Source: Chlamydiota bacterium
GTDB lineage: Bacteria > Auribacterota > JACPWU01
Length of the DNA stretch: 32,000 nt
Reading direction: 5' to 3'
Assembly: GCA_016196885.1 (NCBI GenBank)
Contig: JACPWU010000039.1
Coordinates: forward strand, 30,001-62,000
The notes beneath the pieces are model-generated. The model searched no databases. It was given only the letters and a program-made list of their open reading frames with translations, and had not been told where the DNA came from. The translations under genes and the position numbers were made by a program. This document shows positions 2 to 31,634 of this stretch, in pieces. The number at the start of each line of letters is the position of its first letter. Position 1 is the stretch's first letter.

Positions 2-400
2 TTGAGAATAGTGGCCGAGATTTCTTCTTTGGCTCGGGAGGGAACAGGGGAACTTCTTCAAGAGGTGCTGGAACTTTATCGGGAGATGATGGGAGATGAA
101 CTGAAGGACTTTAACCAGCTTCTCACACTTTTAAAAACTTTTATTCGCATGGTCAATTTCCATCATGATTTTGAGACGCTGGTCAATGAGGGAAGAATTG
201 GGAAGAGGAATAATGAGACCTATTATGTGAGTTTGAGAGATTTGAGCAAGGTCAAGGAGATGGTTCAAGCGGAGTTTGAAGCGGGTGTTCCTTTGCGGGT
301 TGCGGCGCGACGAGCGATTCAGAGACGCTATTATAACCGCTTTTTAAGGGAGGATCGGTCTTTGATTGAGAAACTCATGCGTCGTCATGGCCTTCTCGAT
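2..400 (+). other. Lid/C-terminal helical part of an additional B-type AAA+ module whose core lies upstream of the window
   Basis: NETYYVSLRDLSKVKEMV...RRAIQRRYYNRF aligns by eye with the post-B1 lid ESYYTSLRDLSRMVRVMV...PKAIHRIYGLRM and with the post-B2 lid GYFISPRDIAKIIDVL. Confidence 0.6.
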
Positions 401-3400
401 GTAGACGAGAAGCTGGATTATGACTATGTCTTTGAAGGGCTTGAGCCAGAATCTCGCAATATCAAGGTTTATGAACAGAAAAAAGGGCGCATGGTTCAAC
501 GAAAGGGGGAAGTCGAAGAAGTTCGCACGGGAGAGAAGGTGCCTCTTTTAAATATTCAGTTGGAGAAAAATTTTGAAGGTCTTCGCCGCGACGAAGTTTT
601 AAATGCCAGCACGCGGCGGGGTTTGGCCCAGCTTCTTTCAGCCCTTGGGGGACCTGCCAAGAAATTTTTTAATCCCGTTTTTCTTTTTGGGATTACCTCC
701 GGGGGAAAAAGCACTTTGGCCCGAATCGCAGCGAAGATGCTGGGTGTAGGATATACCCGCATTCAGATTACGGCCCAGACGGATGAGTTTGAACTGTTTG
801 GAAGTTTCCAGCCTTATGAAATTAACATTTCTCCTCAGGATGCGTACGAACGCATTCAGGATGGACTCGCTCGTGGAGAATTTATCAAATTGGAAGAGGC
901 TTTGAGTCGACTAGAGTTTGGTGAAGAGGGAAAACTTTTTCAAAAACTTTTGGAGGGTCACGAGGACTGGGCCGAAAAGTATCATGGGCTTCAAGGTGAG
1001 GCCAGGTTGAAATATCAAAGAGAAATTTTGGAAATATATCTTAAAACAAAAGTGGGTGATTATTTAAGACGGACCGCGGCCATTCTTTATAAAACACAAG
1101 AGGGGCATGTGGTGAGTGCTGAAGAACTTGCTTTTGTAGAGGTGTTTAAGAGCTTGGCCATGCTCATGGACCAGAAAATGGGGCTGCGTTTTGTGGATGG
1201 ACGTTTTCTCACGGCTTATCGCAAGGGGGATTTAATCTTGCTGGATGAAGCCAATCTTGCCAATGAGGAAATGGTCGGGGTTCTCTATCAGATGCTGACA
1301 CGCGGCTATTTGGAATATCAGGGGAGGCTGATTGAATTGGCTCCTGGCGCCACGCCCCGTGTCGTTGCCACGGGGAATCCCTCAACGGATTCGGGACGCA
1401 ATCGGATGAGCGAGGCCTTTATGAATCGCTTTGAAATTATTCAGGTCGAGGATATGAACCCGGATGAAATGGCGGATCTTATTGTGGATCAATTGGCTGT
1501 AGACGGAGTGAATCTGGAACAGGATTTAGGAATGACGCGTGAGCAATTGATTCAATTTGCTGAGATTCAGCGCTCTCTCAACAATCTTCTCAGAACAGGA
1601 AAATTTTCCAATATGGGACAAGAGGAAAATTATGTTTTTACCCTTCGAAATCTTTTGAGAATTGTGGGGGATGTGAGAGAAAGAAAGGCTGCGGGACATC
1701 CCGTCAATATTGAGACCTGGATTCAGGAGGCCTATCTCGAGTATCAGGGGATTTTGGTGAGGCGTGATTGTTATACACCGGATCCGAGCGGTAACTCAGA
1801 CTATCGGTCTTTGCGCAATGTGTTTAGCGTGGCGCTGGGATATAAAAGAGAGGGGAAAACGCCAGAAGAAACACTGGATACGCTTATTCAGGAACGATTC
1901 GGCAAAATTGAGGGAGCCGATGATGCTGTTCAACATCGCATGGAGCTCGATGGTCTGAGCTTGGAAGCGGGTCATTCCGAGGAGGAGGTTTTGGTGGATG
2001 AATTGATTGAGGTTGAATCCACAAAATTTATTGAGACCTATATTGCGAAAGGGATTCGCCAGAGACAGGCTGTTTTATTTGTGGGCCAGTCTGGAGGTGG
2101 AAAAACGGATGTGATTGCGAATGTGGCTAGAAAAACAAATCGAAAATACGTCAGTGTTTCTTTGGGGGATGCCACTTTAGAAAGTTTGATTGGGACGGTG
2201 GAATATGACCGCAGGGAAAAGCGGTTTAAGTATCGGCCGGGCATTTTGGTGATGGCCATGGAAGAGGGATCTATTTTGGCTCTGGAAGAATTGAATATGG
2301 CCAAATCCGGGATTTTGGAAATTTTGAATGAATATTTTGATGAAGGGACATTCACCAATCCTTTCACTTTAGAAAAAGTGAAAGTTCATCCTGATTTTAG
2401 ACTTTTTGCAACCATGAATCCCATGGAAGGAACCCGCGGGGCCAATGAAGGAAGGACTTTGCTTTCTCCTGCTCTTCGAAGCCGATTTCGAGAAGTTTGG
2501 GTGCCTCATGAGAAGACGGATGATGAGATACGTACAATTTTAAAAGGGAAGTTTGAGCAACTCCTCCCTGTAGAAAAAAGTTCTACCTCCGAGGTGACCA
2601 GACTGCCCGAAAATCCCATTATTCCCCTCCCTCGATGGGAGGGGTTAGGGGAGGGTGAACTCAAATCCACCCCCTCCCTAACCCTCCCCACAAGGGGGAG
2701 AGAACTTTTAGGACAGCCTGTACCTGGAGGTGACGAAGATCCCCTTATCGAAAATATGTTGTCTTTTTATCGCCGCTATCAAGGGGATTTTGAGGAAATT
2801 CGAGATGAAAGCTATTACACCAGCTTGAGGGATTTAAGTCGGATGGTGCGGGTGATGGTGCTTCATGTAAAAGAACATGGAATGACGCTAGAAGAAGCTT
2901 TGCCCAAGGCGATTCATCGGATTTATGGCTTGAGAATGACCACGCCCCAGGCAAAGGAGAAATATCAAAAGATTTTATCCGATTTAAATATTCCACAATA
3001 TCAGCCCGGGCAAATTATTTTTGAAAGAGATGAAAACTTCCTTCATGTTTATGAGGTTTCAACAAAATCTCTTAACTCCCCCAACCCTTTAAATGGAGTA
3101 ACTCCCCAGGCCCCTCTTAACCTAAGAGGGGGTATTGATGGAGTAACTCCCCAGGCCCCTCTTAACCTAAGAGGGGGTATTGATGAAAGAGGGGAGGACG
3201 ACAAAACGCTGATTGCGCAACTTCGCATTGATGATCTCCAGAGTCAAACAGCATCCCAAGTTCGTTCAGAGTTAATCTCTCAGGGGGTTGGAGAAGACGA
3301 ACTCGATTCAAGAGCGTCCGAGGCCTTAGACACTCTCCTCTCATCTTCCCAGCTTGTTCAAGACCCCAAAACGGTAGCTGAACTTTCTCATCTTTTAGAA

Positions 3401-6400
3401 GCCTTTGATGTGGGAGAAGAAAGGCATGCAAAAGGGCGATTTAATCCTGTGCTTTTCATGGGAGGGACCAGTGGAGGAAAAAGCAGCAAGGTTCGATATG
3501 CGGCTTTAAATCTTTTGGGTCAGGGGTATACCCGCATTCAATTTAATGAAAGAACAGATGAAATCGACCTTTTGGGAGGCTATGAGCCTCGCGAGGTCAA
3601 AATGGATTTTGATGAGGCTTATCTTGTCTTGACCGAAGCGATGAAGAATGGTGAATGGATCAAAATTAAAAAAGCGCTTCAGGTTTGGAAAAAAGGTTCT
3701 CTTTCGTCAGCGGACGATAAGGCTTTTGAAGAGGAAGAAGCACGGCTTGGAATTGTCCAAGCCAATCAAGAGGCGATGGTGTTTGTTCAAAAATTGTTGC
3801 AGGATGCCTTTAAGGAAGGATCAAATATGGATCCTGAACTTCGCGAGCAGGCTCACCACAAAATAATTAACATGGCGTTCTTAATTAAAAATGGTGTCCT
3901 CAATGTGGAGTTGGAATTTAAAGAAGGTCGTTTCTTAAAGGCCTTGCGACGAGGGGATGTGGTGCTCTTAGATGAAATGAATTTGGCCAGCGAAGAGATT
4001 GTGGCTATTCTCTATCAGTTTTTGCTCACGGGCTATTTGGAATATTACGACCGCGGGCAAGGGAAGATTGCCAAAATTTTCCCTGGAAAAGGTTTTAAGC
4101 TCGCGGCCACGGCGAATCCAGACACTTACAGCGGGAGAAATCGCCTGAGCGAGGCCTTGATGAACCGTTTTGAGATTCATTACATTGAAGATATGGCTCC
4201 TTCGGAAATGGCTGAGATTGTGAATCGGGAGAATGGATTTGAAGGAGAGCGCCAAACGGCAGTGGAAAAATTGTCACAGTTTCAGTCCCTTTTAAATCAG
4301 AAAATGAGAGAGGGGGAGTTCTCCGGGATTTCTTCAGATCCTCAAGGAGGCTACATCTTCACCCTAAGAAATTTGAAGCGCATTGTCAAGGATGAAAGGA
4401 TGTTAGAGGAAATGGGCGAGACGAGTTCTTTCAGAGAGCTTATTTTGCGTGAGGCCTTTCTAGAGTATTCCAGTGTTTTGGGCAGGTCTCCAGAAAATTT
4501 AGCTAAACTCCAAGCGCTTTTTAAAGATTCAACTGAAGGATTTGGAATAGATGTTGAACTTCCAAATTTTGAATTTTCAAAAAATGCAGACGGCGTTTTA
4601 TCGATAGGCTCGATTAAGCTTGAGGAGGTTCGTGACGAGCCGGTTGAAGAAGATTTGGTGGAGCCCTTGGCCGCGGGTCCCCAGACCAATCGTATTCGTT
4701 ATCAAATAGCCAAGGGCTTTCTCGATCGCCGTCGTCCCATGCTTGTGGTCGGCCAATCGGGAGTTGGAAAAAGCGATGTGATTGGGGATATGGCCCGGGA
4801 GCTCAAGTGGAAATACAGGAGTGTATCCCTGGGAAATACCTCTTTAGAGGCTTTAGTCGGGACCTATACGATTGATCGAAACACAAAAAAACTGGTTTAT
4901 GTTCCTGGTATTTTAATTCAGGCCATGCGGGAAGGTTCTATCCTTGCTCTTGAAGAAATTAACATGGCTAGCCCCGCCCTGATCGAAATTTTAAATGAAT
5001 TTTTTGATGAGGAAACCTTCACCAATCCTATGACGGGAGAAAAGGAAAGCATTCACCCTCGTTTCAGACTTTTTGCGACGATGAATCCGGAACAAGGGTT
5101 AACAGGGCTGAATGGCGGTCGAAATGCCCTCTCGCCCTCCCTCCGAAGCCGTTTTAATGAGGTCTGGTTTCCAGAAAATCGCTCTCCCGAAGAAATGAAG
5201 GCTATCATTCGTCAAAAAATGATCAATCGAGGTGTTTTGGAAAAAATGGATTTTGCGGTTGATGAAATTTATCATGTGTATGATGAATATTTTAAAGCGG
5301 TTCTTTCCCAGAAAATCGGGGAAGATTCCAATGAGGGATATTTCATTTCTCCGAGGGATATTGCCAAAATCATTGACGTCCTGGCCGTAGATTTAAAAAA
5401 TGGTATTGAGCCTGCGAAGGCCCTTCAACATGCCTTTGAGCGCGTTCTCATTTATCGCCTCCATTCTGAAAAGGATCGGGTCTATGTTCAGAGTCAAATT
5501 CTGAAACAGACAAAGAAAGATCCCTACACCTGGGAGGAAAGCGAGACTGGTTCTGTCGTTAAGTGTGAGGGCGTCACATTGGGAACCATTTCTCCTGAAA
5601 TGTTGGGAGATTTTATTTTAACGGATCAATCCAAAACAGCCGTGGCCCGGATTCTGGATGCTTTGAGAACCGTTCCTGAAAATGCAAAGAGGCGGTTTAA
5701 TCCTTTGATGTTAATTGGCGATACATCCGTTGGAAAAAGCACCATGGCTGAGCTTGCAACAAGAATTTCTGCTAAACCCCTCACGCGAATTCAGATGAAT
5801 CAGCGTACGGATGAATCTGATCTTTTTGGCAGTTTCCATCCGGTTGAAGTGACTTTGGATAATACCCAAGCGTATGAAGTCGTGACAGAAGCGCTGCAAA
5901 AAAAGCAAATTCTTCGCATTCGACAGGCCCTCGAATATTTAAAGATTTCTAAAAAACGCATTACCGGTTCTTTGGGTCTTGAAGGGGATGTAAATCTTGA
6001 TGACAGCGTTCTTGAGCGCTATGTGCAGGAAATCCTTTTGAAGGGATTCAAAGAAGGGGATGCACGGTCAAGCCAGATTTTTAGAGATCTTGCTATTCTC
6101 CTGGCCAATGGAGGAACGGGAATCGATCTTGAATTTAAGAAAGGTCTTTTCTTACAGGCTATGAGACGAGGAGAAGCAGTTTTATTAGACGAACTCAATT
6201 TGGCGAGTGAGGATGCCCTGGCGCTCCTCTATCAGCTTTTAACCTTGGGATACATTGAGTTTCAGGGAGAGCGGATTTATCCCGCCGAGGGTTTTCAATT
6301 AATCGTCAGTCTCAATCCCTCTTTGGGATATACGGGCCGCAATCCCCTCAGCGAGGCCTTTATGGACCGTTTTGAGATTCATCATGTTCGGGAAATGAAA

Positions 6401-9400
6401 CCTGAAGAAATGGCCTTTATCATCCATCAAAAATACAAACTCGAGAGTCATGGAATTTCTTACGACGACGTTTTGAAACTGGCTCAAATGCAAACCCAAA
6501 TCGATCATTTGAGCCGAGAAGGCGGGTTTGACTTTTTCAACACGGACCGTTCATATCGTTTTGCCTTGAGAAATCTGGAAAGAATCGCCGAAGATTTTAT
6601 CGCCCGCGTCTCTCTCAAGCTGTCCGAAAACCAAACAATTCCCCTCCCTCGAGGGGAGGGGTTAGGGGAGGGTGAGGTCAAATCCACCCCCTCCCTAACC
6701 CTCCCCGCAAGGGGGAGGGAACTTTTCGGGAAGCCTGATGGGGGAGTTAGAGAAATTTTCCTAGAAGAAGCCTTCACGGAATATGGAACGCTTTTAGACC
6801 AGACGGATCGCAACATCCGAAAATTAGTCGGGCGAAATATTTCAAAAGATCTTTTTCAAGGGTTAGAGGCGGCTGTTATTCCTTCTTTGTGGGCTTTCTT
6901 GATCAAAGGAAAACATATTGATCCGAATGGAAGGCTTTTAGAATTCGAATCTTTGAATAAAGAAGGAGATATTATCATTTCTCCTAAGCCTGGAGAGGAG
7001 ACAAGAGTTCCCAAAAGAGTGATTTATCACCTTCTCAAAAATTCTCTGGGTCTTTTTAATCAATATTTTAATTGGGAGGGGATGGGACAATATGCTGAAA
7101 AGTTTGAACATACACAAGAGATTCTGCGGCTCAATGGTGTGGAGGTTTTGAAAAAACCTTCTGATACAGAAACCTTGGCTAATCTCATCGAGCCTCAAAC
7201 CCAGTTGCGTTCGACCGCTCTGACCCGGACTCAGGTGTTAAAGGGTTTTAGAGACGGGAAAGTGGTTGAGATCGGAGACGCTCAGGGCCAGGTGAAACAC
7301 GCACACCGATCTCGACCCGTTTTGATTGTGGGTCAATCGGGCGGAGGGAAAAGCGATATGGTGGGAGATATTGCAAGAGAGCTTCATTGGAAATACACGA
7401 GTGTGTCCCTGGGGGCGGCAACTGTCGATTCACTTATTGGTTCTTATGAATTAGATGAGGTCACAGGGGTTCTTCGTTTCCGAGAAGGTGTTTTGATTAA
7501 GGCCATGCGGGAAGGTTACTGCATTGTATTAGAAGAAATCAATATGGCAGATGCCGCGGTCATTGAGATTTTGAATGAATATTTTGATCGAGGGACATTT
7601 ACATTGCAGGAGCGAAGGGTGCAGGTAGATATTCATCTTGATTTTAGGCTTTTTGCCTCCATGAATCCAATTCAAGGAAAGATGGCCCAGAATTCAGGAC
7701 GTGTTGGACTCTCTCCCGCCTTGAGGAGCCGATTCCGTGAGGTATGGCTTCGCAGTGAGCGTACACGCGGGGAAGAATATCGCATCATGCTGGGGGGGAT
7801 TAAAAAATTTGTGGGACAGCTTTTGAAAGCGGGCACGCAGGATATTGGAGAGGTTCAGGAAAGTCTGGGGGAGGTGATTGAAAATTTAAGAGAGGGGGTA
7901 GGGACTCAAGGAACTCATCAAATGATGAGAAACAATTCAGGCGTTTTGTCTTCTTCTACAAGTGCGCAGGCCGCGGTCAGCGTTTCAACCATGAAAATGG
8001 CAACCCCTGTGGCTGGGGGTGGGAGTGGAGCTTCTGGAGGAGTAACTCAGACAGAAGATTTGGAAGGTAAGAAAAAAACGTATGTGGAAACCTTTGTTGT
8101 GGTGAGTGAAGGAAATGTCCATTTGGCGGAGTCTACTCCGGATGAGCGAGGTCAAACCCACTGGGCTTATGCTCCGGCGACGAACACGCTTTATTATCCA
8201 CCCGATGAATTGGCCACAACTCCCATCGATGAAATGGTGGGGGTTGGCATCCATGAATCCATGCACCGCTATGGAACGCGTTACTTGAGCATTTTTGAAG
8301 AATTTTTAGAGGAAAATAAACTCGCTGGAATGATTTTTAATATTTTGGAAGATGGTCGAATTGAAAATTGGGCCCGCTTGCGTTTGACAGGAACGGCGTC
8401 TTACTTAAGAAAGCTCAACGACAATAAAATCTTTAATAAGCCTATCGCCGAAATGTTTGCCTGGGAAGTCGAGATTCGGGAAGGCCCTCTGGCCGGTCAA
8501 AAAATCAAACGATCCTATTCATCCATGGTGCAAGACTTTTTTCTTTACCTGGCCAAACGTGGATCCGATTCCGATGCCAAAGAAAAAATCGCTGAAATTC
8601 TCGATATCATGGGCCAAGAATCCCAAGAACTTCGTCAAGATTTGGAAACACTCATGAATAAAGGGGTTTTTGGCGGAGCAAAGGATGAAGACATGCTTCA
8701 GAAAAAAATGAGGGGCGTTTTTTCTCTCGTACCCATCAAGACAGATGGACAGGGGCGTATTTTATTTGATCGGGATCCCACCGAGGAATACAAGGATGAG
8801 TTGGCCGAGGAGCAAGGGGTTATTATTCGAGAAGAGATGATGCCCATCGTTTATAAATGGGCCGTTCAGGATGTTCAGGAAGGCCGAGGGAAAGGTGAAG
8901 GGCAGGGTCAACCAGGAAAAGAAGGAGAGGGTGATGGGACTCCTGGCACAGGCAAAGTCAAACCGGGTAAACCCGGAGGGGGCGGCAAGCCTATTTCGCC
9001 CAAAGACTGGAAAAAAATCTGGGAATCTTTAAATCCTGAGGATAAAAGGGCGTTAGAAAAAGCCCTCAAAGAAGGTTTGGGGGACAAGGCAGCTGACCGG
9101 ACCAAATCAAATTCAAAGGATTTTCAAGAGGCTCAGAAAGACGCCACTTTAAGCGCTCCCATTTCTGAGAGAGATCGTTTGCTTAAACAGGTGGGAAACC
9201 GGATTCATGAGCTCACTGGATACCTTCGCGAGATTATTCTCAATGCGACTCGTCCCAAATGGAAACAACCCGAAAGAAGAGGGAGATTCATTGCCCGTCT
9301 TCTCCTCAATGCCATTCCCCGTGGCGCGGTCGGGAAAATGCTCTTCTTCGCCAAGCGTGAGATTCCGACCAAAAAGAATGTGACTTTTACCCTTGTCATT

Positions 9401-12400
9401 GATGCAAGCGAAAGTATGGACGATATGCAAAGGATGGATTCTGCGGTGGGTTATAACGCCCTGAAAGGCGCTTTTATCATGATGGAAACTTTAGAAAATT
9501 TGGGGATCGATTTTAATGTCAGGTGGATTGGAGATACGACAGGTTTATACAAGCGATTTAAAAATCAACCTAATCCGGAGGGAGAAAATATTCCCAACAG
9601 TTTTTCGACGCGTATGGATCGGGAAAAAATCATTCAATCCATGTACGAGTCCATCGGTCAAAAAGGGGGGACAAATGATGCGCTTGCGATTCAAGAAACG
9701 ATCAAAGATATTGAGCGCTATGGGGCTGAAAATCACTATGTAACCGTATTTACGGATGGTATGGGGACGATTCCTCAGGTTCAGGAAATTCTGCAAAAAG
9801 TTCGTGAAAACAAAGGGCGGATCGGGCGATCCAAAACTGAATTTATTGGGGTTGGACTCGGAAATGCAACCAAAATTGTCCCTGATGTTTATGGAAAAGA
9901 ATATTCCATCCATTTGAAGGATCATGAGCTTAGGGAATTACCGGTTCGAATCAAGCGCCTCATGGAGCGTTTGATCAATCGGATTTATCGAGAGGATACC
10001 ACTCGAAAAGCGCCTAGCCCTCTTTCTGGGACTTCCATGAGCGGGGCCAGTGTGGATGGGATGATTGGGCAAGGAAATGCGATTGTTGAGTTCCTAGAGG
10101 AACTCAACAGTTCAAGGTTCAAAAGTTCAAAAGATCAAAGGTTAGAACAGGAGTTTGCGGATGTATTAGACGGACATGAGGTCTATGTCTTTGACGCTCT
10201 CATCAAGGGGCCGCATGATTTTGTGCTGGGGTATCGGGATAAAGTGAATAAAAGGCTTTATGTTTCACGAGAAGTCCTTCACCGCTTGGAAGGCCGTCCG
10301 AATGTTTTACGGGAATATCTCTTTCACGAAGCCCATTGTGACCCGGATGTCGAGGGAAGCCATTATCAAACCATCGCTGAGCAGCAAAGGCTCTATCCCG
10401 AAAATTACATAGGCATGGGATATTTTAGAAATGAAGAGGGGGTTCTTCTTTATTATGCAAGAAATCCCTATCTCAATGAAATGCTTGGATTTTTATGGGA
10501 AATGATACATCCCCTTGAAAAATGGTTTCCGTTTCTGGCTCGTCTTTCTCCTAAGATTGCGAAAGGGGTGTTGGGAAAAGTTTTACGTTCAGTGATCGAA
10601 GAAGAGTTAAAGAATGAAGCACCCCGAAAATATCCTTATAAATACAGAAGCTTTTCTCAAGCCAAGTCTTCTTATGAGAAGGAGCATGGAAAGATTCCTG
10701 AAATATGTCTGAATAGGATGGAGATGCTGCCTTCTTACAGGAAGAGGATTAAACAATTTGGTTTTGAAGATATGTTGCTTTTGCTACCGAACTCTCCTGC
10801 CCGCATGCCCGAGCTTCTAAGACTACTTGAGTGTTTGGAAAAAGTATTTGGAGAGGATGTCCCTCTTTTCTGGCCAGATTTTATGCGTTTGGTTAGTGGA
10901 TCGAGGGATCGAGAGGGCTTGGACTGGAATCCAGGTCTTTTGGAAGGGCTCTTGGATTCTTTTGATGTGCGTTTACCAAGCTATTATTCTCGACAGGAAA
11001 GAAAGAGATGGTTTCAAGAAGCCGTCGATCTGAACTTACGGGCAGGAGCATACGCCTTCGATTTTTGGGAGAGAGCCATGAGGTTCAATGTACTTGGGCT
11101 TGCACTGGATCAACGACAACTCCAAGAAGTCGGAAATATTGTGTTATCTGCAAATGAGAAGTTAGGATCTATGAGAGACAAAGATTTTTTCTCTATCGTT
11201 GGAAGTTGGGGGGAAGCGTTCAAGAGTATAGATCAATTAAGGGAGGCCGTTCAGAAAATCGTTGCAGTGATGAGTCCCTCATACATTCACGATTCGGAAG
11301 CTGCGGACATTGCCTCTATATCGAGAGAATCCAGTGGTTTTGCTGTTGTCTGGAAACTCTGGAGTCGGGTTCAAGAGAGTGAAAGAGAAGTTTTAATTTC
11401 TATGGTTACCAAGATTTGGAGACTTAATATTCAGACCCCTTCTACTAAAGCAAGAATTCTAGAGCATTTCCAATCCATCGCCGATGAAAGCGGCCCGGAC
11501 GCGATTGTCGGGGATTTGGAGGCGTTGTTGGAACGCCTTAAGAAGCCTGTTGGGGATGATGAAGGGGATGTGTATGAATTAGCGACTCCATTGACAGTTC
11601 TAACTCAAGGAGGTTATTTGCCATCAACTTCTTTTTCTCAGGGAGGCTACATTGCCCAAGGGACAGAAGCCAAGGCAGAGTTTTTAGAGAATTTAGCTGC
11701 GGGGAGATATGAGTTTTGCCGAAGGAAGGATTTTGAGGAGGGTTTTAAAAAGATTTTAGAGGGTTATGAGGTTTATGTCGTTCCTGCAATTATCAAGGGA
11801 CCGGATGATTTTTTCCTGGGAACGAAGGACTTCACTCAAAGGAGAATTTATGTGACAGCAGAAGTTTTGGGAATTTTATGCCAATGGTATCGTGATCCGA
11901 AAGACTGTCGTCGTTTGATCAGCGAATATTTCTGGCATGAGGTTCATGAAGAACCTTCACCTGAGCGGCATGAGAGTCTCATTCAGGAGCAGCAAGTCAA
12001 ATTTAAGCAGAATTACACGGGTAAGGGCTACAAGAAAGGGTCTGGTTACTTGATAGATCCTCAGAAGCAAGGCAAGGTTGCCAAAGGAGAATTGGGAGAC
12101 GCCCTGTGTCATTTGATCACCAAAACCCTTCAAGGGGGGCAAACGCCTAAAGATTTCGTGAAGGATGCCTTTAAAGCCTATCGTGCGATTTATGGGAAGG
12201 AAGTCGATTTGGATCAGTGGGATAATGTTGAGGGTGCGTTGATTCCTAACCTGGATCTTTGGGTGGAAATTTTTGGCGTGAAAAGGCTTTTGGAATATAA
12301 CGCCCTTTTCAACAAAGGTTTCCTTTCCGAAGATTATTTTGAGATGTTAACGGGTCTTTCTTTTTCCTATGCATCGGGGGACCCTTTTAAAATGCTGGAA

Positions 12401-15119: not shown

Positions 15120-16406
15120 TTACCCTAAAACATGCCAAGGAACGGCAATGATTTTTTCACTCATTCGCACAATCTCATTCCCATTATAAATAAGAACGGC
15201 TGCTTGTGTTTCGGGGTATTCTTTCAGAAAAATTTGTAAATTTCTTGTATCGCTATACTGGGGGTTAGATGCGAGCTTGACCTCAAAGGCAATCAGATGA
15301 CGACCTTGCTCCAGAACAAAATCTACTTCTTTCCCATCCATAGTTCGCCAGTAAAACAGGCGAGGACGGGGCAGCAATAATTGGGATGTCACTTGAAGAT
15401 GTAAAAAAATTAAACTCTCAAACATAGCACCGATTTCTCTGGCTGCCTTTAAATCGTGAATGTCGCTGTAGCCGGCAAGATAAGCGCTGAGTGCGGGATC
15501 TATCCAATATATCTTGGGAGATTTCATCAAGCGCTTGGTCCGATTTCGGTGAAAGGCATTTACACGTGTGACGAGGCATGACGCCTCCAATAAATTGATA
15601 TAGCGATGAATGGTGGGCTGACTCATCGCGATGTCTCTGGCCAATGCAGATTGGTTCAATATATTTCCGGTCCTTAAGGCCAGGGCCTCCATCACGCGTC
15701 TAAAATCCGAGAGGGATTCAATTTGAGAAATTTGGCGTAAATCTCGTTCCAGATAAGTGGCGACATACCCTTCCCACCAGCGAACAATAGAATCTGGCCT
15801 CTTCAGGGTTAAAAGAGGAGGCATGAGGCCTTTGTGGATTTGTTCAATGGGGTCATGAGAGATATTGTTTTTGCCTTCATCAGGAAATTTTCCCCTGAAA
15901 ATATTTTTAATGAGTCCAGAGGGTATATGATTTTGGGTCTCACCCAGTGTCATGGGGTAGAGTGTAAAATAGACCGCTCGTCCCGCGAGCGTCTCACTCA
16001 CCTTTTCCATCAATAAGAGATTGGCTGAGCCTGAGAGAATAAAACGGTTTTTTCTCCCTCCCTCATCGACTTTTCTTTTGATGGCCAATAGGAGAGAAGG
16101 GACGCGTTGAACCTCGTCTAAAACCATATTTTCTTCACTAGATAGAAGCGCCATTGGATCTTTCTGAGCCTGGTTTAGTAGGTCATAATCATCAAAACTA
16201 AGGTAACGCCACTTAGAAAATGGCGCTTCTTTTTGCAAAAGGGTGCTCTTACCCACCTGGCGGGGTCCTGTGAGGATCACGACGGGATGATCTTTCACGG
16301 CGGTTTGTATCTCGGATGTTAGCCACCGGGGTTTGTAATATAATTCATGATCTGAATGAATATCATTCATACCTTGAATAGTATTACAAATGAGTCGATC
16401 GGTCAA
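15120..16406 (-). CDS. AAA_14/DUF4143-family ATPase (COG1373-like) with PD-(D/E)xK-like C-terminal motif
   Basis: 428-aa ORF with Walker A GPRQVGKST and Walker B MVLDEVQ. The C-terminal DGKEVDFVLE...IAFEVK is encoded at about 15276-15329. An alternative start at M13 (MNDIHSD, 16370) is possible. Confidence 0.85.
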   Translation of the reverse strand: MTDRLICNTIQGMNDIHSDHELYYKPRWLTSEIQTAVKDHPVVILTGPRQVGKSTLLQKEAPFSKWRYLSFDDYDLLNQAQKDPMALLSSEENMVLDEVQRVPSLLLAIKRKVDEGGRKNRFILSGSANLLLMEKVSETLAGRAVYFTLYPMTLGETQNHIPSGLIKNIFRGKFPDEGKNNISHDPIEQIHKGLMPPLLTLKRPDSIVRWWEGYVATYLERDLRQISQIESLSDFRRVMEALALRTGNILNQSALARDIAMSQPTIHRYINLLEASCLVTRVNAFHRNRTKRLMKSPKIYWIDPALSAYLAGYSDIHDLKAAREIGAMFESLIFLHLQVTSQLLLPRPRLFYWRTMDGKEVDFVLEQGRHLIAFEVKLASNPQYSDTRNLQIFLKEYPETQAAVLIYNGNEIVRMSEKIIAVPWHVLG

Positions 16407-16467: not shown

Positions 16468-17643
16468 TTACTTCAAAATAGCGTCAATTCCTTCCTGCCA
16501 GGGGAGGGCTCTTGTATGTTTTATTTTTTGGGGTTGGGGATCCCGAGACAAGAGATAGCTTTCGGTTTTATTCATCTCACTTGAGAAGGTTTCCAGATGT
16601 TTTGCATCTTTAGGATCAACATGTTTTGAGGACTTAATCTCAACAAGCGCCAAAGGCTTTCCGGGTCGCTCGATGATAAAATCAATTTCAGCTCCGTCAT
16701 GTGTTTTAAGATAAGAAAAACGAAAGTTCTTGTTGAGGTATTCACTGCGGCGTACCAGCTCTAGAAAGACAAGGTGTTCAAACGCATTTCCAAAGGCCGA
16801 AGTCTGTTCAAGAAGGAGGACGGTTAACGTCCGATCTAAGGCTCGCTTAACCCCTGTGTCAAAGAAATAAAATTTAGGGTTGGTCAGTTGTCGTTTTCTC
16901 AAGGAGGAGTGATAAGCAGGAACCAAAAATCCCAGCAGTGTATCTTCTAGAATTTGGAAATAAGACTGAACTGTTTTTGTGTCGACACCTACATCACGGG
17001 AAATCTTGGTGTAATTAATAATCTCACCATTCATTTGTGCAGCCACTTCTAAAAAATTTCCGAAGGGTTCTAGCTTGCGGATAAGTTGTTCATTCCAAAT
17101 TTCTTCCTTTAAGTAGGTCCGGCTATAGGCCTCCAAGTATCGGGTTTTCATCTCTTTTTTTGGAAGACACCAGGGCTCAGGCAACATTCCGTATTCCAGG
17201 GCCATTTGAAGATGGGAAGGGTGGGTGCCTGCCTCAAGAAAAGTGAGAGGAAATAGGTGATAGACAAACGCTCGTCCTGCCAGAAGATTGGGTGCGCCCC
17301 GTTTCAATTTTCGAGCGCTTGAACCTGTCATGATAAATTGAAGGGGAGTCCCTTTACGTTTACGTTCCTCTAACTTTCTGTGTATCACATCCAAAAGGCG
17401 TGGAACTTTTTGAATTTCATCGATAACAATGCGTTTACAGGACTGAGGAAGCTCATCCACCATTCGTCCTAACCTCTCGGGGTCTCGAAGAAAAAGATTT
17501 TCCTGTTCAAGGTCCAGAAGATCAATAAAAATGGTATCTTCTTTTTTAAAGCAGGCATGCAAAAGAGAGGTTTTCCCTGTGCCTCTTGCACCCAAGAGAA
17601 AAAAGCTATGTTTTTGTGGGAGCTTTAATATTCTATGGACCAT
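16468..17643 (-). CDS. AAA_14/DUF4143-family ATPase, second divergent paralog
   Basis: 391-aa ORF with Walker A GARGTGKTS and Walker B IVIDEIQ. The C-terminal DGAEIDFIIE...LALVEIK is encoded at about 16633-16689. Confidence 0.85.
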   Translation of the reverse strand: MVHRILKLPQKHSFFLLGARGTGKTSLLHACFKKEDTIFIDLLDLEQENLFLRDPERLGRMVDELPQSCKRIVIDEIQKVPRLLDVIHRKLEERKRKGTPLQFIMTGSSARKLKRGAPNLLAGRAFVYHLFPLTFLEAGTHPSHLQMALEYGMLPEPWCLPKKEMKTRYLEAYSRTYLKEEIWNEQLIRKLEPFGNFLEVAAQMNGEIINYTKISRDVGVDTKTVQSYFQILEDTLLGFLVPAYHSSLRKRQLTNPKFYFFDTGVKRALDRTLTVLLLEQTSAFGNAFEHLVFLELVRRSEYLNKNFRFSYLKTHDGAEIDFIIERPGKPLALVEIKSSKHVDPKDAKHLETFSSEMNKTESYLLSRDPQPQKIKHTRALPWQEGIDAILK

Positions 17644-18837: not shown

Positions 18838-18861
18838 CACAGGGTGTTGAAAAAACAGAGG

Positions 18862-18943
18862 ATTCCCCTCCCTGGATGGGAGGGGTTAGGGGAGGGTGGA
18901 AAATACATCAAAAATCAAAATGTAAATATCAAAGGGGAGAGGA
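18862..18943 (+). repeat. G/C-tract repeat element, copy 3 (intergenic variant with the C-rich arm replaced)
   Basis: attcccctccctggatgggaggggttaggggagggtgg matches the left half of copies 1 and 2. The tail caaaggggagagg matches the element's 3' end. The centre is an unrelated A/T-rich stretch. It lies between the trmJ-like gene and era. Confidence 0.75.
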
Positions 18944-20820: not shown

Positions 20821-20821
20821 A

Positions 20822-20890
20822 GTTGTAGGTTATAGGTTTAAAGTTTTAAAGGAGTTTATTTTTTACTTACATCTTATAGCTTCCCTTCCA
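20822..20890. repeat. Heptad-arm inverted repeat E1 with conserved AT-rich loop
   Basis: Left arm is GTTGTAG GTTATAG GTTTAAAG (20822-20843). Loop is TTTTAAAGGAGTTTATTTTTT (20844-20864). Right arm is a CTTACAT CTTATAG CTTCCCT tcca (20865-20890). The arms are only partly complementary. It starts 2 nt after the stop codon, and a CTCAC-rich tract follows at 20901-20940. Confidence 0.6.
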
Positions 20891-21457: not shown

Positions 21458-22498
21458 ATGATTACAAAAGAAGACATTATCAATCAATTGCGTCATGTCC
21501 ATTATCCCGGCTTCACCCGAGACATCGTATCTTTCGGTGTGATCCGGGACGCTATTTTTGAAAATGGACGTGTCGAGATTGTGCTTTCTTTTACGACAGA
21601 GGCACCTGATAAACGAGGCCAAATTCAAGAAGGGATTCGAAAGGCGCTTTCTTCCTTGCCCGAAGTGAAGGAAATAAACTTCAAGGTGGTTGATATTCCT
21701 CAGGGCTCCCCTCGGGATCGGGCCATGCTGGAAAGAAAAGAAATTCCAGGGGTGCGAAATGTCATCGCTGTGGCCAGTGGGAAGGGCGGTGTTGGAAAAT
21801 CAACGGTGGCGGTGAATTTGGCCTGTGCCTTAAAAATGTTGGGAAGAAAAGTGGGCCTTTTAGATGCGGACATTTATGGACCGAGTATTCCCATCATGAT
21901 GGGGCTTTACGATCGGCCTGGGTTGGCGGAAGATCAGAAATTCATTCCCCCTCAAAAATTTGGTTTGGCGATGATGTCTCTGGGGTTTTTTATAGAAGGG
22001 GATAGCCCGGTGATTTGGAGGGGACCCATGGTGACGGGTGCCATTCGCCAATTGCTTTATGATTCTCAATGGGGAGGGTTAGACGATTTGGTCGTGGATC
22101 TTCCCCCGGGGACAGGGGATGCTCAACTCACCTTGGTTCAATTGGCGCCGTTGAAGGGGGCTGTGATTGTGACCACGCCTCAAGACGTGGCTTTGGTGGA
22201 TGCCCGCAAAGGGGTTTCCATGTTTCAAAGGTTAGAGGTCAAAATTTTTGGGATTGTGGAGAACATGAGTTATTTTATTTGTCCTCATTGCCAACATGAG
22301 ACAGATATTTTGAGTCGCGGGGGAGGAAAGAGAGAAGCCGAACGCTTGAGTGTTCCTTTTTTAGGTGAAATTCCTATGGATTCTAGTATTTGCTCTGGAG
22401 GGGATGGGGGGGTTCCTATTGTGATTCAATCTCCAGAGTCTGAGGTGTCAAGAGCTTTTCTCCATTTAGCGCAGTCGGTTGTAGGACAGCTAAGTTAG
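21458..22498 (+). CDS. apbC: Mrp/ApbC/NBP35-family Fe-S cluster carrier ATPase
   Basis: 346 aa with an N-terminal DUF59-like region, the deviant Walker A VASGKGGVGKST, and the CPHC motif (FICPHCQHE). Confidence 0.93.
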   Translation: MITKEDIINQLRHVHYPGFTRDIVSFGVIRDAIFENGRVEIVLSFTTEAPDKRGQIQEGIRKALSSLPEVKEINFKVVDIPQGSPRDRAMLERKEIPGVRNVIAVASGKGGVGKSTVAVNLACALKMLGRKVGLLDADIYGPSIPIMMGLYDRPGLAEDQKFIPPQKFGLAMMSLGFFIEGDSPVIWRGPMVTGAIRQLLYDSQWGGLDDLVVDLPPGTGDAQLTLVQLAPLKGAVIVTTPQDVALVDARKGVSMFQRLEVKIFGIVENMSYFICPHCQHETDILSRGGGKREAERLSVPFLGEIPMDSSICSGGDGGVPIVIQSPESEVSRAFLHLAQSVVGQLS

Positions 22499-23631: not shown

Positions 23632-23710
23632 TCGTGAGTTGTTAGTTGTGAGTCGTTAGTTTTAAGGGTATTTATTTTTTACTCACGACTCACCCCTCAC
23701 GACTCACGAC
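23631..23710. repeat. Heptad-arm inverted repeat E2 with conserved loop
   Basis: Left arm is GTCGTGA GTTGTTA GTTGTGA GTCGTTA GT. Loop is TTTTAAGGGTATTTATTTTTT (23660-23680). Right arm is ACTCACG ACTCACC CCTCACG ACTCACG AC (23681-23710). It overlaps the stop codon by 1 nt. Confidence 0.85.
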
Positions 23711-28790: not shown

Positions 28791-28860
28791 CAGTTGTGAG
28801 TGGTGAGAGGTGAGTTTTAAAGGTATTATTTTTTTACTCACCCCTCACCCCTCACGACTG
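28791..28860. repeat. Heptad-arm inverted repeat E4 with conserved loop
   Basis: Left arm is cag TTGTGAG TGGTGAG AGGTGAG. Loop is TTTTAAAGGTATTATTTTTTT (28815-28835). Right arm is a CTCACCC CTCACCC CTCACGA ctg, followed by TTTTAT. It starts 4 nt after the stop codon. Confidence 0.85.
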
Positions 28861-31558: not shown

Positions 31559-31634
31559 CAGTCGTGAGTGGTGAGTCGTGAGGGGTGAGTTTTATAGGTA
31601 TGATTTTTCACTCACGACTCACCCCTCACGACTG
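31559..31634. repeat. Heptad-arm inverted repeat E7 with conserved loop
   Basis: Left arm is cag TCGTGAG TGGTGAG TCGTGAG GGGTGAG. Loop is TTTTATAGGTATGATTTTT (31590-31608). Right arm is ca CTCACGA CTCACCC CTCACGA ctg, followed by TTTTAC. Extra CTCAC units follow at 31645-31657. Confidence 0.85.

What the first reader, a model, noticed from the sequence alone, without database searches (positions are those of the whole stretch)
2..7765. AAA modules alternate between two types (A-B)x3, with a seventh lid at the window edge implying more than six modules
Type A modules (A1, A2, A3) share NP(V/L)(F/M)L..G..S.GKS, a canonical hhhhDE Walker B (LILLDE, VVLLDE, AVLLDE), GRN.(M/L)SEA(F/L)M(N/D)RF, and a mutually homologous 95-130-aa insert between the post-Walker-A strand and Walker B. 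That position corresponds to the helix-2 insert of the MoxR/midasin/dynein clade. Type B modules (B1, B2, B3) share VGQSG.GK(T/S), a Walker B in which Asp is replaced by Glu (ILALEE, ILALEE, CIVLEE), FA(T/S)MNP, and SP(A/S)LRSRF. This indicates an ancestral A-B di-module that was triplicated. It may be a ring of alternating, functionally distinct sites. The first about 130 residues of the window align with the lids that follow B1 and B2. At least one more B-type module therefore lies upstream, and a strict six-module ring is not guaranteed.
Basis: seen in the sequence. Interest (0 to 1): 0.7.

Follow-up and report, generated by a model that had tools for sequence, protein, structure and literature searches.

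The report
Bacterial midasin-like six-module AAA ring
The window holds most of a giant bacterial relative of the eukaryotic ribosome-assembly motor midasin: its six ATPase modules alternate between two types, and the "extra" lid at the window edge is most likely the displaced lid of the last module rather than a sign of a seventh module.

Summary
The sequence features are real. One ORF (nt 2-15115, 5037 aa, open at its 5' end) carries six AAA_5 cores in the order A-B-A-B-A-B. All A modules have a DE Walker B and a 90-125-aa helical insert in the helix-2 hairpin. All B modules have an EE Walker B. In a module tree, A modules form a clade (99.7%) and B modules form a clade (100%). The three A-B pairs align end to end, so a triplicated A-B pair is supported.

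The "more than six modules" inference is not supported. Four relatives reach further upstream: P0001, P0005, the P0003 locus and P0006. They show 237 to 3565 residues before the first lid and no AAA core there. In every ortholog the last module, B3, lacks its own lid. The count is therefore six cores and six lids.

This mirrors yeast Rea1, where AAA6S is absent and the N-terminal domain takes its place. The closest solved structures are midasin rings. Downstream lies a midasin-type MIDAS/VWA domain. The orthologs with a source name come from Candidatus Omnitrophota and are annotated only as "AAA family ATPase".

Verdict: a new bacterial variant of the midasin architecture. Ring closure by the N-terminal lid is inferred, not shown.

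The parts
44..391 (+). lid0: an orphan B-type AAA small domain (five helices) that carries the sensor-2 motif YYVSLRDL (Arg at aa 79).
   Evidence: lidB HMM scores E 1.6e-39. hhalign to midasin lids AAA1S-AAA5S gives 83-98.5% probability. AF2 helices span aa 15-128, with block-mean pLDDT about 85-92 from aa 41 (38-65 over aa 1-40), dipping to 71-80 over aa 61-80. The (S/A)LR(D/E) motif is kept in 6 of 6 lineages.
419..559 (+). Beta-rich connector between lid0 and A1.
   Evidence: AF2 strands lie at aa 140-186.
599..1447 (+). A1 large domain. Walker A is GITSGGKS (nt 689-712). Walker B is LILLDE (nt 1232-1249). The H2-alpha helical insert covers nt 815-1183.
1460..1900 (+). A1 lid, with sensor-2 motif YVFTLRNL.
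2003..2506 (+). B1 large domain. Walker A is GQSGGGKT. Walker B is ILALEE. The arginine-finger motif is LRSRF.
2507..3031 (+). B1 lid, with sensor-2 motif YYTSLRDL. It is interrupted by an in-frame palindromic repeat element at nt 2603-2720.
3386..4174 (+). A2 large domain. Walker A is GGTSGGKS. Walker B is VVLLDE. The insert covers about nt 3599-3907.
4187..4636 (+). A2 lid, with sensor-2 motif YIFTLRNL.
4670..5173 (+). B2 large domain. Walker A is GQSGVGKS. Walker B is ILALEE.
5174..5536 (+). B2 lid, with sensor-2 motif YFISPRDI.
5633..6376 (+). A3 large domain. Walker A is GDTSVGKS. Walker B is AVLLDE. The insert covers about nt 5852-6124.
6389..6871 (+). A3 lid, with sensor-2 motif YRFALRNL. 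It is interrupted by a second in-frame copy of the repeat element at nt 6620-6737.
7205..7792 (+). B3 large domain. Walker A is GQSGGGKS. Walker B is CIVLEE. The arginine-finger motif is LRSRF. All motifs are intact, but no lid follows.
   Evidence: After B3 the lidB HMM matches only its core part, positions 1-31. No sensor-2 motif follows.
7793..8116 (+). Short tail after B3 (aa 2598-2650, read as helical from the sequence; no model was made), then an S/A/G-rich low-complexity linker.
8117..8881 (+). Conserved HExxH domain, with HESMH at nt 8252-8266 and a downstream EDGRIE motif. It is a putative metallopeptidase-like module.
   Evidence: H, E, H, D and E are invariant in 5 orthologs. The only Pfam hit is weak: DUF2201_N at E 0.32.
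9164..9991 (+). MIDAS/VWA domain, with DASES (DxSxS) at aa 3134-3138 (nt 9401-9415), within VIDASESM at nt 9395-9418.
   Evidence: The ortholog profile hits the Rea1 MIDAS crystal structure 6qt8 at E 8.4e-8. Pfam VWA matches 4 of 5 orthologs, best E 1e-11.
10022..15115 (+). Variable C-terminal region. It contains a repeated ~130-aa domain with a conserved 'HE' motif (nt 10022-10441 and 11618-12031). Near the end there is a faint receiver-like stretch.

Best explanation
The finding lies in the AAA+ motor of a giant (probably over 7000 aa) bacterial homologue of midasin (Rea1/Mdn1).

Ring composition. One polypeptide supplies all six MoxR-clade AAA modules of a single ring. The ring was built by triplication of an A-B module pair. 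A modules have a DE Walker B and carry a roughly 90-125-aa alpha-helical bundle on the helix-2 beta-hairpin, like the H2-alpha inserts of Rea1 AAA2/4/6. B modules have an EE Walker B and a plain hairpin.

Ring closure. The chain is cut one domain out of register. It starts with a B-type lid (lid0) and ends with a lid-less B3 core. When the ring closes, lid0 is covalently joined to A1 and is modelled in a defined position relative to A1's large domain (AF2 pTM 0.78; contacts were not inspected). It then sits where B3's own lid would be. There it would supply the sensor-2 arginine, and A1 would supply the arginine finger. The B3 site would then be the nucleotide-dependent clasp of the ring.

Likely action. 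ATP turnover in the ring is used, as in midasin, to pull on or remodel a ligand held by the tethered MIDAS/VWA domain. An HExxH module lies between the ring and the MIDAS domain. A hydrophobic N-terminus, seen in orthologs, probably anchors the protein to the membrane.

Shown: module types and order, clades, lid counts, absence of upstream cores in relatives, and sequence and fold similarity to midasin. Inferred: ring closure through lid0 and B3, catalytic competence of the EE sites, and the remodelling function.
For: Module identity and order:
- Six cores in A-B-A-B-A-B order.
- A clade at 99.7% and B clade at 100%.
- Collinear di-modules.
- Intact Walker A, Walker B, sensor-1 and RF motifs in all six modules of every ortholog.

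Lid accounting:
- Six sensor-2 lids for six cores.
- Full B-lids occur at lid0, after B1 and after B2, but never after B3, in the window, P0001-4 and P0009.
- No AAA core upstream of lid0 in P0001, P0005, the P0003 locus or P0006.
- The lid0 sensor-2 motif is conserved in 6 of 6 lineages.
- lid0 is a genuine AAA small domain: hhalign 83-98.5% to midasin lids and a five-helix bundle in the AF2 model (mean pLDDT 83, pTM 0.78).

Midasin relationship:
- The best PDB sequence hits are midasins, at E 1e-82.
- The best fold hits are the Rea1 and Mdn1 rings 6hyp, 6i26 and 6or5, at E about 1e-17.
- The MIDAS profile hits Rea1 MIDAS 6qt8 at E 8e-8.
- Precedent in Rea1: AAA6S is absent and the NTD takes its place. 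Each AAAL packs on the preceding AAAS. AAA2L/4L/6L carry H2-alpha bundles (PMC6286127).
Against: - The window's own upstream sequence is unknown. The conclusion rests on orthologs that are 40-46% identical.
- No structural model of the closed ring could be made because of the 1200-aa limit, so a lid0-B3 contact is untested.
- P0006-type relatives have an N-terminal lid and also a lid after their last visible B module. An N-terminal lid therefore does not always pair with a lid-less terminal core.
- B3 keeps a short (~50-aa) tail after its core, of unknown role.
- The tree does not show that A and B correspond to midasin's even and odd modules (0.3% and 5% support). Module-specific midasin HMMs do not discriminate either.
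- Asp to Glu in Walker B might impair the B sites.
Confidence: 0.6

Rival explanations
1. The lid at the window edge belongs to a seventh B-type AAA module, and by the A-B rule probably an eighth module too, encoded just upstream. The protein would then have more than six modules.
For: lid0 is clearly a B-type lid. Everywhere else in the protein such lids follow a B core. In the distant relative P0007, the truncated N-terminus does begin inside a B core that precedes a lid.
Against: Three orthologs and P0006 show 237-3565 aa upstream of lid0 with no AAA core. The tests were HMM search with --max at E<=100, hhalign (0.1% probability) and Pfam (0 families). Two of the three orthologs and P0006 start at a Met followed by a hydrophobic segment. 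B3 lacks a lid in every ortholog, so the lid count already balances at six.
Confidence: 0.05
2. lid0 is only a structural cap or vestige. It packs on the A1 large domain, as every lid packs on the next large domain. It does not complete the B3 ATP site. B3 would work, or idle, without a lid, and ring closure would rely on other contacts.
For: In Rea1 the element that replaces AAA6S is a non-lid NTD, and the AAA6 site is degenerate (PMC6286127; LDN Walker B). P0006-type proteins carry an N-terminal lid although their last visible B module has its own lid.
Against: B3 keeps perfect Walker A, Walker B, sensor-1 and arginine-finger motifs in all orthologs. lid0 keeps the sensor-2 arginine motif in 6 of 6 lineages. 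That conservation is hard to explain for a purely structural cap.
Confidence: 0.22
3. The permuted boundary serves intermolecular assembly. lid0 of one chain would complete B3 of another chain by domain swap, giving head-to-tail dimers or filaments or an open spiral, not a closed single-chain ring.
For: A lid separated from its core by about 2400 residues could in principle act in trans. Related proteins carry one or two A-B pairs separated by long spacers, which must combine somehow (P0006, P0007, P0008, P0015).
Against: Six tandem modules with midasin- and dynein-like spacing, and the best fold matches to single-chain rings, favour intramolecular closure. No evidence for oligomers was found.
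Confidence: 0.1

Closest known systems
Eukaryotic midasin (Rea1 / Mdn1 / MDN1)
   Same: - Six AAA_5 modules in one chain.
- Best sequence matches (E 1e-82) and best fold matches (6hyp, 6i26, 6or5).
- Alternate modules carry an alpha-helical bundle on the H2 hairpin (PMC6286127).
- The last module lacks its small domain, and an N-terminal element stands in for it (PMC6286127).
- A tethered MIDAS domain with DxSxS and the midasin-specific pre-MIDAS segment.
   Different: - The order of long and short modules is shifted by one: long-short x3 here, short-long x3 in midasin.
- The N-terminal stand-in is still a recognisable lid with a sensor-2 motif. The midasin NTD shows no lid similarity (hhalign below 3%).
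- All six sites have intact motifs. Midasin AAA1 and AAA6 are degenerate.
- B modules have an EE Walker B, which midasin never has.
- There is no ~1700-aa linker and no D/E-rich region. The ring is followed by an HExxH domain and a short K/G/E/P-rich stretch, then MIDAS, then about 1700 more residues.
- Orthologs have a huge N-terminal extension with a hydrophobic start.
- The host is a bacterium, so pre-60S substrates do not apply.
Dynein heavy chain motor domain
   Same: A single-chain ring of six MoxR-clade AAA modules in which each small domain packs on the next large domain. It gives the second-best group of fold matches (E about 1e-15 to 1e-13). The Pfam families AAA_7, AAA_6 and DYN_lid score weakly.
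   Different: No stalk or microtubule-binding domain, and no N-terminal mechanical linker was detected. Dynein keeps AAA6S. Dynein has no VWA domain. Sequence similarity is far lower than to midasin.
MoxR-VWA systems (RavA-ViaA, NorQ-NorD, CbbQ-CbbO, CoxD-CoxE, CobS-CobT)
   Same: The same AAA clade with a helix-2 insert. B cores hit NorQ, CbbQ and CobS at E 1e-8 to 1e-4. They are functionally coupled to a VWA/MIDAS partner (PMC7159879). VWA_CoxE and CobT_C Pfam hits occur in orthologs.
   Different: Those systems are homo-hexamers of single-module proteins with the VWA domain on a separate protein. Here six diverged modules and the VWA domain are fused in one chain.
Giant proteins of Candidatus Omnitrophota
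   Same: The three orthologs with a source name (P0001, P0002, P0006) are Omnitrophota MAG proteins. AAA_5 is listed among the frequent domains of Omnitrophota giant proteins (bioRxiv 10.1101/2023.11.21.568195). A hydrophobic N-terminus fits the membrane-anchored class (bioRxiv 10.64898/2026.06.07.730766).
   Different: Those surveys do not describe a midasin-like ring, the A/B alternation or a MIDAS domain. Searches for 'midasin', 'dynein' and 'VWA' found no occurrence in either paper.

Membership tests
Midasin (Rea1/Mdn1) family | Six tandem MoxR-clade (AAA_5) modules in one polypeptide. | tested here: met
   AAA_5 scores E 3e-112. There are six Walker A/B pairs and six cores by HMM. Midasins are the top PDB hits.
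Midasin (Rea1/Mdn1) family | An alpha-helical extension (H2-alpha) of the helix-2 beta-hairpin in every second module. | tested here: met
   Core lengths are 259/168/246/168/248/183 aa here and about 130/255/152/215/160/235 in midasins. The insert is at the same alignment position. In the AF2 model it is a helical bundle between two hairpin strands. The phase is shifted by one module.
Midasin (Rea1/Mdn1) family | The last module has no small domain, and an N-terminal domain occupies that place. | tested here: inconclusive
   At sequence level this is met: there is no lid after B3 and there is an orphan lid before A1. Whether lid0 physically takes that place needs a ring structure. The precedent is PMC6286127.
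Midasin (Rea1/Mdn1) family | A MIDAS (VWA, DxSxS) domain tethered C-terminal to the ring. | tested here: met
   DASES lies at aa 3134-3138. The ortholog profile hits Rea1 MIDAS 6qt8 at E 8.4e-8. Pfam VWA matches 4 of 5 orthologs.
Midasin (Rea1/Mdn1) family | A helical linker of about 1700 aa and a D/E-rich region between the ring and MIDAS. | tested here: not met
   Only about 540 aa separate B3 from the MIDAS motif. They contain an HExxH domain and a short K/G/E/P-rich stretch. A profile of aa 2690-3345, which covers most of this segment and the MIDAS domain, matched the PDB (midasin chains included) only over its MIDAS part.
Midasin (Rea1/Mdn1) family | Degenerate AAA1 and AAA6 nucleotide sites with four active sites AAA2-5. 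| tested here: not met
   All six modules keep GK[ST], a hhhh[DE]E Walker B, NP and RF motifs. In the same alignment midasin AAA1 reads IEDID and AAA6 reads LDN.
Midasin (Rea1/Mdn1) family | Orthology of individual modules to midasin AAA1-6. | tested here: inconclusive
   The NJ tree gives 0.3% support for A with AAA2/4/6 and 5% for B with AAA1/3/5. Module-specific midasin HMMs score A and B alike. In phmmer, the A Walker-A segment aligns to AAA2, 4 and 6, but only the AAA2 stretch scores marginally (i-E 0.78; AAA4 and AAA6 are i-E 1.5e4 and 23); the shown B1 alignments are to AAA1, AAA3, AAA5 and the C-terminal half of AAA4.
MoxR AAA+ clade | A beta-hairpin insert in helix 2 and the AAA_5/AAA_3-type core. 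| tested here: met
   AAA_5 and AAA_3 hits. NorQ, CbbQ and CobS PDB hits. Hairpin strands flank the insert in the AF2 model.
   No core was found in the 237-3565 aa upstream in P0001, P0005, the P0003 locus or P0006.

The most novel reading that the evidence does not exclude
Omnitrophota (and some other prokaryotes, such as P0010) may encode true midasin homologues. In them the ring is closed by a still-recognisable lid that sits at the N-terminus of the motor and serves the lid-less last module. On this reading the 'NTD replaces AAA6S' arrangement of eukaryotic Rea1 is the eroded remnant of a circularly permuted lid. Single-chain six-module rings with a tethered MIDAS domain would then have arisen in prokaryotes, by triplication of an A-B pair, before eukaryotes acquired them. 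That contradicts the published view that the six-module chain arose early in eukaryotic evolution (PMC3495828).
Probability: 0.25. Interest if true: 0.8.

Novelty: new variant of a known kind. Interest (0 to 1): 0.6.

Why it matters
Midasin and dynein are the textbook single-chain AAA+ rings. The literature I could read derives the six-module chain from MoxR "early in eukaryotic evolution" (PMC3495828).

This bacterial protein has six midasin-like modules and a midasin-type MIDAS domain. Its module-pair ancestry is still plainly visible, and all six ATP sites look intact. That makes it a simpler and possibly more tractable model for three questions:
- how alternating module types divide labour in such rings;
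- what the H2-alpha inserts do;
- how a ring made from one chain is closed.

The orphan lid with a conserved sensor-2 arginine makes a concrete, testable prediction: the B3 site is assembled across the chain ends. It also offers an evolutionary reading of the Rea1 NTD.

The result also assigns a recognisable machine to one class of the unexplained giant genes of Omnitrophota.

Tried and rejected
- The search for homologous proteins with aa 1-1200 and with aa 1-225 returned nothing. The search for related loci with aa 1-600 in genome and metagenome contigs also found nothing. Only the exhaustive profile search found the family.
- AF2 on a single sequence covering the ortholog upstream region plus A1 (P0001 aa 1150-2032) gave pLDDT 37 and was discarded.
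- A first module tree used alignments in which the A modules had lost their N-terminal half. It was replaced by a split N/C alignment. A Biopython tree run timed out.
- I tested whether the midasin NTD or the region after AAA6 is a cryptic lid. hhalign gave under 3% probability, so no sequence support.
- I tested whether A and B map onto midasin's even and odd modules using module-specific HMMs. The scores did not discriminate.
- I tried to place the organism with Mrp/ApbC. The best identity was only 54%, spread over many phyla. Assignment to Omnitrophota rests only on the source names of three orthologs of the giant protein (P0001, P0002, P0006).
- A PADLOC scan of the giant protein gave only generic P-loop hits. 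No defence-system assignment follows.
- I considered a chimeric B3 + lid0-A1 AF2 model. I rejected it because paralogous rows in the alignment would force the expected fold, so it would not be independent evidence.
Full report
WHAT IS THERE

The window opens inside one very long ORF (nt 2-15115, + strand, 5037 codons, no start). The genes that follow are ordinary cellular genes: two DUF4143 ATPases, spoU, era, mrp/apbC, a GH57 branching enzyme, astA, cheW and a porin.

The first 2600 residues carry six AAA cores. The Walker A motifs are at aa 230, 695, 1154, 1584, 1906 and 2444. The Walker B motifs are LILLDE, ILALEE, VVLLDE, ILALEE, AVLLDE and CIVLEE. Pfam AAA_5 scores E 3e-112.

CHECKING THE OBSERVATION

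Two module types alternate. Best-HSP scores within a type are 166-220 bits. Between types they are 35-58 bits. The one higher cross-score, B1-A3 at 76-82 bits, is caused by a shared repeat-element insertion.

The three A-B pairs align collinearly over about 800 columns at 41% and 36% identity.

The A-specific insert lies between the strand after Walker A and the F.F..G.FL segment before Walker B. It covers aa 272-394, about 1200-1302 and about 1951-2041, and the three copies are alignable with each other.

The first roughly 170 residues of the window match only the lid part of a B-module HMM (E 7e-11). They also match the lids after B1 and B2 by BLAST (E 2e-5 and 4e-5).

RELATIVES

Word-based and pattern-based searches found nothing. 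An exhaustive HMMER search with the three-pair profile found a small family, P0001-P0009 and P0015 (2319 to 441 bits, P0001-P0005 above 1400). Below it came prokaryotic multi-AAA proteins and then what appear to be about 130 eukaryotic midasins (unnamed in the library; inferred from length, module pattern and one sequence matching S. pombe Mdn1 in length).

P0001 is collinear with window aa 1-3345 at 46% identity. P0005 is collinear with aa 1-1701 at 43%. Of the five family members I looked up, the three that carry a source name (P0001, P0002, P0006) are Candidatus Omnitrophota MAG proteins annotated only as 'AAA family ATPase'.

Every hexa-module ortholog has the same A-B-A-B-A-B order. All 22 B modules in nine proteins have an EE Walker B. 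All 18 A modules have DE. GK[S/T] and the RF finger motif are kept in all but one of the aligned modules (P0002's B1 reads RM and keeps the arginine), and the NP sensor-1 motif is kept wherever the alignment resolves it.

MODULE TREE

Cores were aligned in two halves to a core HMM, so that the insert did not break the alignment. An NJ tree with 300 bootstraps gave these results:
- The A clade has 99.7% support and the B clade 100%. Both include the modules of relatives with one or two pairs (P0006, P0007, P0015).
- The position-specific groups A1, B1, B2 and B3 have 98, 96, 76 and 99% support.
- The pair-protein relatives branch outside the hexa-module A and B groups, with 64-65% support.

THE SEVENTH LID

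The inference of more than six modules fails on four counts.

(i) Upstream sequence exists in relatives and holds no AAA core.
- P0001 has at least 1519 aa upstream, and P0005 has 3565 aa from its Met. A and B module HMMs (--max, E<=100) hit only the lid.
- hhalign of the 475 aa just upstream against both module alignments gives 0.1% probability.
- Pfam finds nothing in the P0001 upstream region.
- The genomic locus of P0003 shows a 2813-aa ORF starting at a Met. It has 2479 aa without any core, then lid0, then the first half of A1.
- P0006 starts at a Met and has 237 aa, then the lid, then A.

(ii) A lid HMM built from the segments preceding A modules finds full lids at lid0, after B1 and after B2. 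After B3 it finds only the core part (positions 1-30 to 1-48). This holds in the window, P0001-4 and P0009.

(iii) The window has exactly six sensor-2 motifs, at aa 77, 547, 941, 1454, 1783 and 2185. None follows B3.

(iv) lid0 keeps the (S/A)LR(D/E) sensor-2 motif in six of six lineages.

The count is six cores and six lids, with the B-type lid of the last core displaced to the front of the motor.

KNOWN PRECEDENT

The Rea1 cryo-EM paper (PMC6286127) makes three relevant statements:
- Each AAAL packs tightly on the AAAS of the previous module.
- AAA2L, AAA4L and AAA6L extend the H2 beta-sheet with alpha-helical bundles.

The present protein shows the same three principles, but more transparently.

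The profile of lid0 and its paralogues matches midasin lids AAA1S-5S at 83-98.5% hhalign probability. The midasin NTD and the region after AAA6 do not match any lid (below 3%).

Core lengths alternate long-short here (259/168/246/168/248/183 aa). They alternate short-long in midasins (about 130/255/152/215/160/235). The insert is at the same alignment position in both.

STRUCTURE

An AF2 model of aa 1-840 (lid0, A1, A1 lid, B1 core) used an alignment of 18 paralogous and orthologous units. It reached mean pLDDT 83 and pTM 0.78. In the model:
- lid0 is a five-helix bundle (aa 15-128).
- A small beta unit follows (aa 140-186).
- The A1 insert is a helical bundle (aa 278-389) between two hairpin strands (aa 267-271 and 395-399).

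Foldseek ranks the Rea1 and Mdn1 rings first (6hyp, 6i26 and 6or5; E 1.5e-17 to 4e-16; TM about 0.5 over about 820-865 columns). Dynein motors come next.

DOWNSTREAM OF THE RING

After B3 comes a short tail, read as helical from the sequence, and then an S/A/G-rich stretch. Next is a conserved HExxH domain (HESMH at aa 2751, with H, E, H, D and E invariant in five orthologs). Its only Pfam similarity is weak: DUF2201_N at E 0.32. A K/G/E/P-rich stretch follows.

Then comes a VWA domain with DASES. Its ortholog profile hits the Rea1 MIDAS crystal structure 6qt8 (E 8.4e-8), and the match includes the segment before the DxSxS motif. Pfam VWA matches four of five orthologs.

The remaining roughly 1700 aa are not conserved among orthologs. 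They hold a repeated ~130-aa 'HE' domain that occurs N-terminally in P0001.

HOW IT MOST LIKELY WORKS

I read this as a single-chain hexameric MoxR-type ring of alternating A and B sites. It is closed by lid0 docking on B3. The B3 site would be built from the B3 Walker motifs, the lid0 sensor-2 arginine and the A1 arginine finger.

The helical A inserts are likely to sit at or over the pore side, as regulatory or recruitment elements, as in Rea1. The tethered MIDAS domain is the likely ligand-binding hand, and ring ATP turnover would act on that ligand. The hydrophobic N-termini of the P0005, P0003-locus and P0006 proteins suggest membrane anchoring.

Closure, the activity of the EE sites and the function are all inferences.

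LIMITS

- The window's own upstream DNA is unknown.
- No closed-ring model was possible.
- P0006-type proteins carry an N-terminal lid as well as a lid after their last visible B module.
- Correspondence of A and B to midasin's even and odd modules is unresolved. phmmer pairs the A Walker-A segment with AAA2, 4 and 6, though only the AAA2 stretch scores even marginally, and aligns B1 to AAA1, 3 and 5 and to the C-terminal half of AAA4.
- Another prokaryotic giant, P0010, shows the same pattern of a lid before the first core and no lid after the last. The archaeal P0011 has a conventional lid after its last core.

NOVELTY

The papers I could search treat the six-module chain as a eukaryotic invention (PMC3495828). 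They do not describe bacterial midasin homologues. The Omnitrophota giant-gene surveys mention only AAA_5 as a frequent domain.

The alternation of modules and the missing last lid are known principles in Rea1. The bacterial occurrence is new, and so are the shifted phase, the still-recognisable N-terminal lid, the six intact sites and the EE Walker B. I rate it a new variant of a known kind.

Noticed in passing
window 2603-2720 and 6620-6737; partial copy at 18840-18898: A palindromic repeat element of about 110 nt (…CCCCTCCCTCGAKGGGAGGGGTTAGGGGAGGGTGA…CACCCCCTCCCTAACCCTCCCC…) is inserted twice in frame in the giant ORF. One copy is in the B1 lid (aa 867-923) and one in the A3 lid (aa 2206-2261). 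The two are 88% identical. A partial copy lies in the spoU-era intergenic spacer. The window's paralogous lids lack the insert (A1 and A2 lids, B2 lid). So it looks like a recent MITE- or RPE-like in-frame insertion tolerated in lid loops.
   Followed up: partly
window 3093-3182: A perfect 45-nt tandem duplication encodes GVTPQAPLNLRGGID twice in the linker between the B1 lid and A2.
   Followed up: no
window 20821-20888, 23637-23704, 28792-28859, 31566-31633: A family of hairpin repeats (GTGAG..GGTGAG … CTCACCCCTCAC) lies directly after genes. They are probably repeated terminator-like elements (family D2).
   Followed up: no
window 15120-16406 (-) and 16468-17643 (-): Two tandem AAA_14/DUF4143 ATPase genes converge on the end of the giant gene. 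Both match the PADLOC candidate defence family PDC-S01 (E 1.6e-116 and 3.5e-67).
   Followed up: partly
window 10022-10441 and 11618-12031: A repeated ~130-aa domain has a conserved V(Y/F)V…GP.DF.LG…YV..EV…EY..HE motif and no Pfam match. The same domain occurs twice in the N-terminal region of ortholog P0001 (aa 376-496 and 969-1135), so it has moved between the ends of the protein.
   Followed up: partly
L081 9700-10120 (locus of ortholog P0003): A single in-frame TAG interrupts the orthologous gene inside the A1 H2-alpha insert. The same gene calls appear in two independent assemblies (JGI and ENA). It splits a gene of about 7600 aa into ORFs of 2813 and 4753 aa. It could be a pseudogene, a split gene or readthrough.
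   Followed up: partly
ortholog P0005 aa 1-3565: The N-terminal extension starts with a hydrophobic segment. It then holds repeats of roughly 300-500 aa, each ending with LW…(S/R)RSE(V/M/A)R. The P0003-locus protein and P0006 also begin with a hydrophobic, signal- or TM-like segment.
   Followed up: no
proteins P0010, P0011, P0013 (one search hits): Other prokaryotic multi-AAA giants also alternate two module types. In P0011 (Thermoproteota) modules 1/3/5 group against 2/4/6 at 96% and 99% bootstrap. P0010 has an orphan lid before its first core and no lid after its last, as in this family.
   Followed up: partly
window 21458-22498 (mrp/apbC): The best identity of this conserved housekeeping protein to 185,579 species genomes is only 54%, spread over many phyla. 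The source lineage is therefore not represented in that collection.
   Followed up: partly
window 14540-14700 (aa about 4845-4900): A faint response-regulator receiver-like stretch lies near the C-terminus of the giant protein (Pfam Response_reg, E 0.007-0.015, below threshold).
   Followed up: no
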